Assembly: GCF_048403405.1 (NCBI RefSeq)
Contig: NZ_CP183129.1
Strand: one strand, 5' to 3'
Length of the DNA: 64,000 nt
Origin: Escherichia coli
Lineage (GTDB): Bacteria > Pseudomonadota > Gammaproteobacteria > Enterobacterales > Enterobacteriaceae
In this document: positions 21,201 through 24,200 of the stretch, piece after piece
Numbering within the stretch: the first letter of the stretch is position 1
How the letters are laid out: each line of letters starts with the position of its first letter
Made by a program: the position numbers

Positions 21201-24200
21201 TACGACGGTGCCGACACCCGTTGGGGTGAGAAAACCACCAAGTCCAGCTCCACCACAGCGAATTTGCTCGATTAGCGTACCTTGCGGCACCAGAACGACG
21301 TCCATCTCACCAGATATCATGCGCCGACCTGTTTCCGGGTTGGTGCCGATATGTGAAGCAATCACTTTGCGGACTCGACCATTGACGATGAGCGGACCGA
21401 TGCCAGTATCAACAAACGCGGTATCATTGGCTATCAATGTCAGGTCGCGAACACCAGATTCCAGTAATGCTTCAACCAGGCGGGATGGAGTGCCAATCCC
21501 CATAAATCCGCCCACCATGATGGTCATGCCGTCACGAAAGAAGCCGGTGGCATCTTGTAATGTCATCAATTTTGTTTTCATTTTTTATCCCTCTTGCATA
21601 CACCGTTGTGGGTACAGTCAGGGAATAGCAAGGGGAGTGCCAGAATGAGATTATTGGGTTTTGTTATTTAACTAATTGAATATGAAGGGATAAATTGGAT
21701 GAGGATTTATAAGGAGAATGAGCGGCTATGCAGAAAATTGCGCACTGTGCAAATATCTGCATAGCAAGTTTTGGCGTTATACATCCGCCGGATCGATACC
21801 GTATTCCTGGAGTTTATACATCAATGCACGGCGACTGATGCCCAGCATTAAAGCAGTGCGGGTTCGGTTTCCTTCTTGTTGTTCCAGCACTTCCATAATG
21901 ATGCGTTTTTCGACGCGTTTAATTTCCTCTTTTAAATTACGCTCACCGACAGGGGCTGTTTTTGCCTCACCAGCATTACAGACTGGCTGACGAATCTGCG
22001 GCGGAAGATCCTCAGAGAAAATGATCGGGCCTGAGTTCATCACGACGGCGCGTTCAATAACGTTGGAAAGCTCTCGAATATTTCCCGGCCATGACCAGGC
22101 GGTAAGCAGTGACATTGCCATCGGATCGATGTCGATAATATCGCGCTGATTCTCACTACTGAATTTTTGCAAAAAGTGATTAGCTAACAGGGAAATATCT
22201 TCCCGGCGATCGCGCAGAGGCGGCAGTATTAAATGAATAACGTTAAGGCGATAAAAGAGATCTTCACGGAAGGTGCCTTCTTTTACCATTGCCTGCAAGT
22301 CACGGTTGGTGGCAGCAATGATGCGGATATCAACTTTTATGGTCTGATGGCCGCCAATCCGTTCAAATTCCCGTTCCTGCAGAATGCGTAGTAATTTGGC
22401 TTGCAGTACGAGCGGCATTTCGCCAATTTCGTCGAGGAGCAGAGTACCTTCGTTGGCACGTTCAAATAATCCCTGACGCAAGGTTTGTGCACCAGTAAAT
22501 GCACCTTTTTCATGACCAAACAGTTCACTTTCGAGCAACGATTCCGGCAGCGCCGCGCAGTTGACTTTAATGAACGGCCCCTTTGCCCGCCGCGAATTGT
22601 AGTGAATCGCTCTGGCAATCAACTCTTTCCCGGTGCCGCTTTCACCGCTAATCAAGACGCTGGCCTGAGAAAGGGCAATTTTGGCGGTGTCTTTGCAGAT
22701 ATCCATCATCGCAGGGCTGTTGGTGAGAATGTGCCCCCATTGCCAGCTGGTGCTCAGTGCCTGGTGCAGATGACGGATCTCTTTTTTCATTGACTGGAGT
22801 TGTAAAGCGCGCTGAACGATTAAATTCAACTCATCGAGATCAAACGGTTTGATAACATAGTCGAAGGCCCCGCAGCGTAGCGCTTCGACGGCGGTTTCCA
22901 CTTCAGCATAGGCCGTCATCAGAATAACGGGGGTCCGTGTCTCATGGCTGCGCATCTCCTTGAGTGCCTTGATGCCGTCCATCTCTGGCATGCGGATATC
23001 CATCAACACCACGTCAGGGTGAATATCGGCAAACAGGTGTAATGCTGTGCGTCCGTTGTTCGCACAATGTGTTTCGAATCCTTGTAGTGCAAAAGCGGTG
23101 CTCAGCATACGGCGAACATTATCTTCATCATCCACAATAAGGATGCGATTAATAGCAGTCATACAGTCTGATTTCCCTGCGGATTGATCGGTAAAATAAG
23201 CGTGAAGGTTGCGCCGTAGCCCGGCAAACTGGCGACGCGAATATCACCCTGATGGGCATTAATGATGCGTTGACTTAACGCCAGACCAAGCCCGGTTCCA
23301 GAGGCTTTGGTGGTGAAAAAGGGATCGAAGATCTTTTTTTGCAGCGAGAGATCAATGCCACAGCCGTTGTCCTCTATCGAAATGGCCTGTTGTGAGTCGC
23401 TGTATTGCCAGGTTTGAATGCGAATTTTCCCTCGTGCGCTGATAGCCTGGACGGCATTGATCAGGATATTCAGTAGTACCTGTTTGAGCAGTTCACGATC
23501 GGCGTTAATCGGGTTTAATTCATTATCCAGTTCGCTTATGAAGTCGACCCGCGCTTGTACGCCGGCGGTTTGTACCAGTACCAGAGTTTCTTCAACCAAT
23601 GCATTGAGACTGACTTGTTGCCATTGACTGTGGCGTGGACGTGAAAATTCGAGCAATTGCTGAATAACTTTGTTAATTGAATCGATTTCTTTGAGTACTA
23701 CGGACAGATATTCCTGATGTATTAGGTCGCTGGTTTGTTGGCGCAAGATCTGTACATAACCACGAATAGCCGTTAGCGGATTACGTACTTCATGCGCGAC
23801 GCCAGCCATCAGCTCACCCAGTGTGGCGAGGCGTTCTGCTTGCGCCATGCGGCGCTGGGTTTCTTTGCGGGCAGTTAAATCAGAGAAAATCACCAAAGCA
23901 CCTATCATTTCACCATGCGTGTTATGAATACGACTGGTAGTGACACTGAGTTCAATGGTGCGGTCACGGCCTGGAAAACTGATCTCCAGCGCTACATGTT
24001 CGGTGCCATGTTCCAGCGTATCCAGTACTGGACTGTAGAACTGAGTATTGTCGAACAACATGGAGTAAGGCTGCCCTACCAGTTCATGACGTTGATAGCC
24101 AGTGATGACTTCTGCTGCCGGGTTCATGGTGGTTACATCACCCTGGCGGTCAATGGCAATGACGCCATCGGCAGCGTTTTCAATAATCAGATCGTTAAGT

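What the first reader, a model, noticed from the sequence alone, without database searches (positions are those of the whole stretch)
21627..21765. Textbook sigma54 promoter plus AtoC enhancer palindrome upstream of atoDAEB
The minus strand carries TGGCAC-N5-TTGCT with exact -24/-12 spacing about 45 bp upstream of the atoD start. A 41-bp inverted repeat (gctatgcagaaaattgcgca / ctgtgcaaatatctgcatagc) lies about 90-130 bp further upstream, at enhancer distance for the NtrC-family activator AtoC encoded just beyond it. The whole acetoacetate and short-chain fatty acid module, which is accessory in many E. coli, is present and apparently intact.
Basis: partly seen in the sequence, partly recalled or inferred. 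Interest (0 to 1): 0.3.

Follow-up and report, generated by a model that had tools for sequence, protein, structure and literature searches.

The report
Known E. coli atoDAEB sigma-54 promoter

Summary
On the minus strand, TGGCACTCCCCTTGCT lies at 21642..21627, 45 nt before the atoD ATG (21581). It is the only exact TGGCAC-N5-TTGCW in 64 kb. The 41-bp inverted repeat lies at 21765..21725, 11 nt after the atoC stop. Both are already characterised in E. coli K-12. The half-sites match the published AtoC sites at the published offsets (PMC3118216). The 17-mer CTGGCACTCCCCTTGCT is sigma-54 ChIP-seq site OS21, flagged experimentally confirmed in EcoCyc (PMC4591121), and RpoN holoenzyme binds this spacer in vitro (PMC8743547). 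All six ato genes are full length. AtoC has receiver, sigma-54-interaction (GAFTGA) and Fis-type HTH domains. The module is in 72% of 5,426 complete E. coli genomes, so "accessory in many" holds. In 21 of 22 genomes from Citrobacter, Raoultella, Edwardsiella and Escherichia, the palindrome, an IHF-like core, the -24/-12 element and the 5'UTR keep nearly fixed spacing. The only departure is an A-to-T change at 21755 in the upstream half-site. It occurs in about 4% of ato-positive E. coli, at a position that is A in all 21 other sequences compared. "Textbook" fits the core hexamers, but published occupancy and motif score are modest. Verdict: already known, low interest.

The parts
21627..21643 (-). 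Sigma-54 (-24/-12) promoter of atoDAEB: C-TGGCAC-TCCCC-TTGCT
   Evidence: It is the only exact TGGCAC-N5-TTGCW in the window. It is identical to K-12 and to ChIP-seq site OS21 (PMC4591121). A 34-nt core including it is exact in 3,789 of 3,851 E. coli genomes. TGGCAY-N5-TTGCW is conserved in 21 of 22 cross-genus loci.
21746..21765 (-). Upstream AtoC half-site GCTATGCAGATATTTGCACA (K-12: GCTATGCAGAAATTTGCACA), carrying the minority T allele at 21755
   Evidence: The published K-12 site lies at -184..-165 from the atoD start (PMC3118216 Table 5). The window allele is exact in 142 genomes and the K-12 allele in 3,543. Position 21755 is A in all 21 other sequences of the 22-sequence conservation set.
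21725..21744 (+). Downstream AtoC half-site GCTATGCAGAAAATTGCGCA (read on the + strand), identical to K-12
   Evidence: The published K-12 site lies at -163..-144 from the atoD start (PMC3118216 Table 5).
21669..21681 (-). IHF-like core ATTCAATTAGTTA (1 mismatch to WATCAANNNNTTR), midway between enhancer and promoter
   Evidence: One search finds the match, which is not significant on its own (64 matches in the window against 50.6 expected). It is conserved across four genera (mean 1.39 bits against 0.55-0.63 in the flanking spacers). Its spacing is nearly fixed: 43-45 nt from the palindrome and 25-27 nt from TGGCA. The IHF requirement is my recollection of Matta et al. 2007, which was not readable here.
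21582..21619 (-). atoD 5' untranslated region, including the predicted start region (21616-21619), the Spot 42-complementary CUGUACCC (21617..21610) and the ribosome-binding site AGAGGGA
   Evidence: The ChIP-seq rule places the predicted TSS 35 bp before the ATG, at 21616. Conservation is 1.56 bits, about that of coding sequence. There is no significant fold (z = +0.87). The 8-nt complement to Spot 42 nt 4-11 arises in 1 of 5,000 shuffles against nt 1-12. atoD is listed as a Spot42-A1 target (PMC6127932).
21777..23162 (-). atoC, the NtrC-family enhancer-binding response regulator (461 aa)
   Evidence: Pfam finds Response_reg 7-115, Sigma54_activat 145-311 (E = 1.5e-75), AAA_lid_14 and HTH_8 415-454. 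GAFTGA is at residue 220 and the acceptor Asp is in the VLMD55 context. There is one substitution relative to K-12, A400 for V400.
23159..24985 (-). atoS, the sensor histidine kinase (608 aa from the K-12 start)
   Evidence: Pfam finds PAS, HisKA and HATPase_c, with HAMP below its curated cutoff. There are 4 substitutions relative to K-12 and no stops.
17735..21581 (-). atoD-atoA-atoE-atoB structural genes: CoA-transferase alpha and beta subunits, short-chain fatty acid transporter and thiolase
   Evidence: Pfam finds CoA_trans twice, SCFA_trans, and Thiolase_N/C. AtoD, AtoA and AtoE are identical to K-12, and AtoB has 7 substitutions. All are full length.

Best explanation
This is the native regulatory region of the E. 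coli atoDAEB operon. RNA polymerase carrying sigma-54 binds the -24/-12 element (21642..21627) as a closed complex that cannot open on its own. When acetoacetate is sensed by the kinase AtoS, phosphorylated AtoC binds the two 20-bp half-sites of the palindrome (21765..21725), centred about 104 nt upstream of the -24 GG. A bend at the conserved IHF-like site (21681..21669) brings the AtoC ATPase to the polymerase, and its GAFTGA loop engages sigma-54. ATP hydrolysis then opens the promoter, and transcription starts about 35-38 nt before the atoD ATG. In K-12, published work cited here shows sigma-54 occupancy at this exact motif, AtoC binding to these half-sites, and atoS/atoC-dependent induction by acetoacetate. 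Transfer to this strain is inferred, on the grounds that the promoter is identical, 40 of 41 palindrome bases are identical, and AtoC differs at one residue outside its DNA-binding domain. The IHF step is also inferred: the site is conserved, and the requirement is only recalled from a paper I could not read.
For: Sequence: the promoter is exact and unique in the window. The half-sites are unique in the window, with 0.04 expected. The inverted repeat is confirmed. Identity with the characterised K-12 region: 235 of 241 bases are identical, the -24/-12 element is unchanged, and there is one change in the palindrome. Literature: the AtoC half-site sequences and offsets match (PMC3118216 Table 5) and are described as experimentally verified with in vivo ChIP. 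Sigma-54 ChIP-seq site OS21 has the same 17-mer and EcoCyc-confirmed status (PMC4591121). RpoN gSELEX gives a peak in the atoC>atoD spacer (PMC8743547). A Pato-GFP reporter is induced by acetoacetate and is unresponsive in atoS, atoC or atoSC deletion strains (PMC7618054). Proteins: AtoC has the full bEBP architecture, GAFTGA and D55, and all ato genes are intact. There is no sigma-70-type promoter match in the spacer. Comparative: 21 of 22 loci from four genera have TGGCAY-N5-TTGCW 75-85 nt after the palindrome. Conservation is block-wise over the palindrome, the IHF-like core, the -24/-12 element and the UTR, with poorly conserved spacers, and the spacing is nearly invariant.
Against: Nothing contradicts it. 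Several caveats apply. The primary footprint and TSS paper (Matta et al. 2007, PMC1951910) is not held, so the mapped TSS, the footprint limits (-146 to -107) and the IHF dependence come from my memory or from secondary citations. The window's upstream half-site carries a T at 21755, where 21 other sequences and 3,543 E. coli genomes have A, and its effect on AtoC binding is untested. The cross-genus loci were found with a pattern that fixed 22 palindrome bases, so conservation of those bases is partly by selection. The 19 unfixed positions still average 1.52 bits. Whether rpoN and ihfA/B are intact in this genome cannot be seen from the window.
Confidence: 0.95

Rival explanations
1. The palindrome acts mainly, or additionally, at the RNA level. 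It begins 11 nt after the atoC stop codon, so it would form a 3' hairpin on the atoSC transcript that terminates or stabilises that mRNA, rather than serving only as a protein-binding site on DNA.
For: The RNA folds into a hairpin of -20.5 kcal/mol with z = -4.19, and 0 of 200 shuffles fold as well. The position right after the atoC stop is conserved across genera. One arm position changes on both sides between E. coli and the other genera (21754 A/T with 21736 T/A), which keeps the symmetry.
Against: Any DNA palindrome folds as RNA, so the z-score is expected. No U-tract follows the hairpin (CCGCUCAUUCUCC), and no terminator was called on the ato strand. The stem is A/U-rich in its centre. 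Symmetric changes are equally expected for a dimer-binding DNA site. Published work describes AtoC binding to these arms and their control of inducibility (PMC3118216 citing Matta 2007).
Confidence: 0.1
2. The A-to-T change at 21755 makes this strain's enhancer functionally weaker or otherwise altered, so the module is present but its induction differs from K-12.
For: Position 11 of the upstream half-site is A in all 21 other sequences of the 22-sequence conservation set and in 3,543 E. coli genomes. The change lowers arm symmetry from 18/20 to 17/20.
Against: The change is A/T to A/T within the A/T-rich centre of the half-site. The published AtoC motif GCkATrCrrnnATTTrCwCA scores this position as n. 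The allele is fixed in a lineage of 142 genomes whose ato genes are intact in this representative, which argues against loss of function. The second half-site and the promoter are unchanged.
Confidence: 0.12
3. The -24/-12 match is a chance or silent sigma-54 site, and atoDAEB is transcribed from another promoter.
For: 17 of 100 shuffles of the window contain at least one exact match somewhere. Published ChIP occupancy is modest (FAT 5) and the motif score is low (PSSM 9.39). Many sigma-54 sites in E. coli are intragenic and of unknown function (PMC4591121).
Against: No sigma-70-type promoter is found in the spacer. The element is conserved in position and sequence across four genera. It is occupied in vivo and in vitro in K-12, and it is flagged as experimentally confirmed in EcoCyc.
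Confidence: 0.02

Closest known systems
E. coli K-12 atoDAEB promoter (atoDp) with its AtoC palindrome (Matta et al. 2007; PMC3118216; sigma-54 ChIP-seq site OS21 in PMC4591121)
   Same: It is the same locus. The gene order rcsC-atoS-atoC-atoDAEB-yfaP is the same, the -24/-12 17-mer and the downstream half-site are identical, and the offsets from the atoD start are the same. Identity is 235 of 241 bases over the spacer and its edges.
   Different: There are six single-base differences in 241 nt. One is inside the upstream half-site (T for A at 21755, a roughly 4% minority allele) and one is 3 nt downstream of the -12 TTGCT (C for G at 21623). AtoC has A400 where K-12 has V400.
NtrC-activated glnAp2 promoter of enteric bacteria (the paradigm of enhancer-dependent sigma-54 promoters; from established knowledge)
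   Same: Both use a receiver-AAA+-Fis-HTH response regulator that binds paired sites more than 100 bp upstream of a TGGCAC-N5-TTGCW promoter and acts by DNA looping and ATP hydrolysis.
   Different: The activator, signal and site sequence differ. Here the two sites abut as one 41-bp palindrome, and a conserved IHF-like site lies in the loop, which resembles nifH- or glnHp2-type IHF-assisted promoters more than glnAp2.
ato-type promoters of Citrobacter, Raoultella and Edwardsiella (loci L002-L023, found here)
   Same: All have the palindrome directly after the regulator gene, an IHF-like core 43-45 nt downstream, TGGCAY-N5-TTGCW 25-27 nt further on, and a 45-47 nt leader to the atoD-like ATG.
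   Different: Most have TGGCAT rather than TGGCAC and a half-site centre of AATTTT rather than AAATTT or AAAATT. The spacers are otherwise unalignable, and one Edwardsiella locus (L013) has a spacer 8 nt shorter.

Membership tests
Sigma-54 (RpoN) dependent -24/-12 promoter | GG and GC doublets exactly 10 nt apart within TGGCAC-N5-TTGCW | tested here: met
   TGGCACTCCCCTTGCT at 21642..21627 has 0 mismatches and is the only such site in the window.
Sigma-54 (RpoN) dependent -24/-12 promoter | Intergenic, oriented toward and close to a downstream gene | tested here: met
   It lies 45 nt upstream of the atoD ATG on the same strand.
Sigma-54 (RpoN) dependent -24/-12 promoter | Occupied by sigma-54 holoenzyme | not testable with these tools
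   This is shown for the identical K-12 17-mer by ChIP-seq (OS21, FAT 5; PMC4591121) and by gSELEX (PMC8743547), and is transferred here by sequence identity.
Sigma-54 (RpoN) dependent -24/-12 promoter | Transcription start about 11-13 nt downstream of the -12 GC, dependent on rpoN | not testable with these tools
   The ChIP-seq rule predicts a start at 21616. The primer-extension paper is not held. EcoCyc status 'confirmed' is reported in PMC4591121.
Sigma-54 (RpoN) dependent -24/-12 promoter | A cognate bacterial enhancer-binding protein is available | tested here: met
   atoC is encoded immediately upstream, with Sigma54_activat at E = 1.5e-75 and GAFTGA at residue 220.
AtoC enhancer (upstream activating sequence of atoDAEB) | Two inverted 20-bp half-sites matching the published K-12 sequences | tested here: met
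   The downstream half-site matches 20/20 and the upstream half-site 19/20, and they form an inverted repeat with a 1-nt centre.
AtoC enhancer (upstream activating sequence of atoDAEB) | Position -184..-144 relative to the atoD start codon | tested here: met
   21765..21725 is exactly -184..-144 from the ATG at 21581.
AtoC enhancer (upstream activating sequence of atoDAEB) | Bound by AtoC and required for acetoacetate induction | not testable with these tools
   This is reported for K-12 (PMC3118216 citing Matta 2007) and in reporter work (PMC7618054). The T allele at 21755 has not been tested.
NtrC-family bacterial enhancer-binding protein (AtoC) | Receiver domain with a phospho-acceptor Asp, an AAA+ sigma-54 interaction domain with GAFTGA, and a C-terminal Fis-type HTH | tested here: met
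   Pfam finds Response_reg, Sigma54_activat, AAA_lid_14 and HTH_8, all above their cutoffs. GAFTGA is at 220, the acceptor Asp is in the VLMD55 context, and Walker B is LLLDE. Identity to K-12 AtoC is 460 of 461 residues.
IHF-assisted sigma-54 promoter | IHF consensus WATCAANNNNTTR between the enhancer and the promoter | tested here: inconclusive
   ATTCAATTAGTTA at 21681..21669 has 1 mismatch, and such matches are at chance frequency in the window. The block is conserved across genera with fixed spacing. IHF binding itself could not be tested, and the literature claim rests on memory only.

The most novel reading that the evidence does not exclude
The T at 21755 is a natural cis-regulatory allele of the AtoC enhancer. 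It sits at a half-site position that is A in every other genus examined and in about 96% of ato-positive E. coli, and it is fixed in a lineage of about 142 sequenced genomes. It could measurably change AtoC affinity or cooperativity, and so the threshold or amplitude of acetoacetate induction. If so, it would be a ready-made variant for tuning AtoSC-based ketone-body biosensors.
Probability: 0.12. Interest if true: 0.25.

Novelty: already known. Interest (0 to 1): 0.08.

Why it matters
It matters little as a discovery. This promoter and its enhancer have been mapped biochemically and genome-wide in K-12 and are already used in engineered acetoacetate biosensors. The value here is as a positive control for the scan, since a reader without tools recovered a real sigma-54 promoter, its enhancer and its activator correctly from raw sequence. 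Two modest additions come out of the check. The first is a cross-genus footprint showing that the enhancer, IHF-like core, promoter and leader keep almost fixed spacing from Escherichia to Edwardsiella. The second is a minority enhancer allele at an otherwise invariant position.

Tried and rejected
(1) I tried to read the primary footprint and TSS paper (Matta et al. 2007, PMC1951910). It is not held, and Beisel & Storz 2011 (PMC3072601) is not held either. Three literature searches for a held paper stating the IHF requirement or the mapped TSS found none, so those points rest on memory.

(2) An IHF consensus scan of the window is uninformative on its own, with 64 matches against 50.6 expected. 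Only the conservation supports the site.

(3) The sigma-54 pattern with 2 mismatches gives 30 matches against 45.6 expected. There is no sign of further sigma-54 sites in the window.

(4) The 5'UTR has no significant RNA structure (z = +0.87). I rejected a structured leader as the reason for its conservation.

(5) Full-length Spot 42/atoD duplex energy is no better than for shuffled or random sequence (fraction at least as good 0.74 and 0.97), so I rejected it as a test. Only the local 8-nt seed test was informative.

(6) I considered the palindrome as an intrinsic terminator of atoSC and rejected it as the main role, because there is no U-tract and no terminator call on that strand.

(7) One script failed on a file-name assumption and one timed out. 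Both were rerun successfully.
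Full report
OBSERVATION. TGGCAC occupies 21642..21637, followed by the 5-nt spacer TCCCC and TTGCT at 21631..21627. Forty-five nucleotides (21626..21582) separate it from the atoD ATG at 21581. It is the only exact TGGCAC-N5-TTGCW on either strand of the 64-kb window. With 0.17 expected and 17 of 100 shuffles giving at least one match, one such site somewhere in 64 kb is not extraordinary. A site inside a 195-nt spacer, oriented toward the next gene, is much less likely by chance. Relaxing the pattern to two mismatches gives fewer matches than chance (30 against 45.6), so the window holds no other candidates. 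The inverted repeat has 20-nt arms at 21725-21744 and 21746-21765, 85% complementary, with one central base. The AtoC half-site pattern occurs only at these two places, with 0.04 expected. The atoC stop codon is at 21779..21777, 11 nt before the palindrome.

WHAT IT IS. The 241-nt stretch is annotated as the atoC/atoD junction in 3,923 of 5,426 complete E. coli genomes. The K-12 gene order rcsC, atoS, atoC, atoD, atoA, atoE, atoB, yfaP, yfaQ matches the window's ORFs in reverse orientation. Each ato protein has its K-12 length and no internal stop. AtoD, AtoA and AtoE are identical to K-12. AtoC differs at one residue (A400 where K-12 has V400), AtoS at four and AtoB at seven. Pfam assigns the expected domains. 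AtoC has Response_reg, Sigma54_activat (E = 1.5e-75), AAA_lid_14 and HTH_8. AtoS has PAS, HisKA and HATPase_c. AtoD and AtoA are CoA_trans, AtoE is SCFA_trans, and AtoB has Thiolase_N and Thiolase_C. AtoC carries GAFTGA at residue 220 and the acceptor Asp in the VLMD55 context.

PRIOR KNOWLEDGE. PMC3118216 lists the K-12 AtoC half-sites as GCTATGCAGAAATTTGCACA at -184..-165 and GCTATGCAGAAAATTGCGCA at -163..-144 from the atoD start (Table 5). Those offsets map exactly to 21765..21746 and 21744..21725. The same paper describes the 40-bp palindrome as experimentally verified, as controlling both inducibility and AtoC binding, and as occupied in vivo upon acetoacetate induction, citing Matta et al. 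2007. The sigma-54 ChIP-seq study PMC4591121 lists site OS21 with motif CTGGCACTCCCCTTGCT, identical to 21643..21627. Its motif centre is 2321415 and its predicted start lies 35 bp before atoD, which is window 21616. Its FAT is 5 and its PSSM 9.39, and it carries the flag for an experimentally confirmed promoter in EcoCyc. In vitro gSELEX with RpoN holoenzyme also gives a peak in the atoC>atoD spacer (PMC8743547). A Pato-GFP reporter responds to acetoacetate and is unresponsive in atoS, atoC or atoSC deletion strains (PMC7618054). The primary footprinting paper is not held. My recollection of its abstract is a footprint at -146 to -107, sigma-54 dependence shown by promoter mutants, and a requirement for IHF. 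That numbering would put the start at 21618-21619, within 2-3 nt of the ChIP-seq rule.

DIFFERENCES FROM K-12. There are six single-base differences in 241 nt. The -24/-12 element is unchanged, and a 34-nt core around it is exact in 3,789 of 3,851 genomes. One difference lies 3 nt downstream of TTGCT (21623). Another lies inside the upstream half-site (21755, T where K-12 has A). The K-12 palindrome is exact in 3,543 genomes and the window's version in 142, so the window carries a minority allele of about 4%.

COMPARATIVE FOOTPRINT. A pattern that fixes 22 bases of the palindrome found 22 loci among species-representative genomes of Citrobacter, Escherichia, Raoultella and Edwardsiella. In 21 of them a TGGCAY-N5-TTGCW element lies 75-85 nt downstream of the palindrome. 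The exception, L018, is cut 58 nt from the match at the locus end, on the promoter side. The alignment shows conserved blocks separated by unalignable spacers. Mean information content is 1.78 bits for the palindrome and 1.52 bits at its 19 positions not fixed by my search pattern. It is 0.63 for spacer 1, 1.39 for the IHF-like core ATTCAAT-N3-TTA, and 0.55 for spacer 2. It is 1.64 for the -24/-12 element, 1.81 for ATTCCCT just downstream of it, and 1.56 for the 5'UTR, against 1.66 for the start of the atoD coding sequence. Spacing is nearly invariant. The palindrome lies 43-45 nt from the IHF-like core, the core 25-27 nt from TGGCA, the palindrome centre 103-107 nt from the GG, and the -12 element 45-47 nt from the ATG. 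One Edwardsiella locus is 8 nt shorter in spacer 1. At 21755 the window's T is unique, and all 21 other sequences have A. The published motif built from weaker non-cognate sites scores this position as 'n'.

MECHANISM. This is an enhancer-dependent sigma-54 promoter. The holoenzyme sits at -24/-12 as a closed complex. AtoS senses acetoacetate and phosphorylates AtoC. AtoC binds the two abutting half-sites, whose centres are 21 bp apart and therefore on the same helical face. A bend at the IHF-like site loops the ATPase onto sigma-54, and ATP hydrolysis opens the DNA. The cited papers show sigma-54 occupancy, AtoC binding and AtoSC-dependent acetoacetate induction for K-12. Transfer to this strain, the IHF step and the helical-face argument are inferences. 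No sigma-70-type promoter match exists in the spacer.

RIVALS. The palindrome would fold as RNA (-20.5 kcal/mol, z = -4.19) and follows the atoC stop closely, so a secondary role as a 3' hairpin of atoSC mRNA is not excluded. It lacks a U-tract, and no terminator is called on that strand. A chance or silent sigma-54 site is excluded by the occupancy data and the conservation. A functional effect of the 21755 allele is possible but unsupported.

VERDICT. The feature is already known and of low interest. 'Textbook' fits the hexamers but not the published occupancy or motif score. The claim that the module is accessory in many E. coli is correct: it is at least 80% covered in 3,898 of 5,426 genomes and has no match in 1,495.

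IN PASSING. ompC carries a TGG-to-TAG change at 32829 (codon 222). It is the only difference from the closest genome checked, and none of the best-listed genomes shares it. The first bases of the atoD leader (CUGUACCC, 21617..21610) are complementary to Spot 42 nt 4-11, and atoD is a listed Spot 42 target (PMC6127932). That probably explains part of the leader's conservation.

Noticed in passing
window 32165..33262 (+), stop at 32828..32830: ompC has an in-frame amber stop at codon 222 (TGG to TAG, G to A at 32829), which would truncate the porin after 221 residues. This is the only difference from the full-length ompC of the closest genome checked (CFSAN061763). All 12 best-listed hits in 5,426 genomes are 99.6% identical over a 261-nt probe across the site, with none exact, so it looks strain-private. 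It could be porin loss under antibiotic or phage selection, or a sequencing error.
   Followed up: yes
window 21582..21619 (-), especially 21610..21617: The atoD 5'UTR is conserved across four genera about as strongly as coding sequence (1.56 against 1.66 bits) but has no significant fold (z = +0.87). Its first bases, CUGUACCC, are an exact complement of Spot 42 sRNA nt 4-11. That arises in 1 of 5,000 shuffles against nt 1-12 and in 285 of 5,000 against the whole sRNA. atoD is listed as a Spot42-A1 target in PMC6127932. Only GUACCC is conserved outside Escherichia. The pairing site begins at 21617, so it needs a transcription start at or upstream of 21617.
   Followed up: partly
window 21755 (-): The upstream AtoC half-site has T where K-12, 3,543 E. 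coli genomes and all 21 other sequences compared have A. The T allele is exact in 142 genomes. Its functional effect is unknown.
   Followed up: partly
window 21620..21626 (-): The heptamer ATTCCCT immediately downstream of the -12 TTGCW is the most conserved short block of the whole spacer (1.81 bits). That is more than expected for the stretch between -12 and the start site. The window has ATTCCCT like most genera, whereas K-12 has ATTGCCT.
   Followed up: no
window 10610..11464 and 11358..15230 (+): The yfaS-position ORF upstream of yfaQ and yfaP is split into two overlapping ORFs in different frames (284 aa and 1,290 aa). This suggests a frameshifted pseudogene, as I recall for K-12 yfaS. 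I did not compare it.
   Followed up: no
window 17735..24985; genome NZ_CM129872.1 (hit H78): 1,495 of 5,426 complete E. coli genomes have no match to the ato module. At least one of the remaining genomes retains only 417 nt at the atoS 5' end, annotated as a hypothetical protein, which suggests a deletion scar rather than primary absence. One genome has the region on a plasmid, and a few have more than one copy.
   Followed up: no
window 31738..31831 (-), 28001..28077 (+), 39838..39920 (-), 56675..56751 (-), 60467..60492 (-): Ordinary annotated RNAs are present. They are MicF next to ompC, two naRNA4 (REP-derived) elements of which one is directly after rcsC, tRNA-Pro(GGG), and the L25 ribosomal protein leader.
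   Followed up: no
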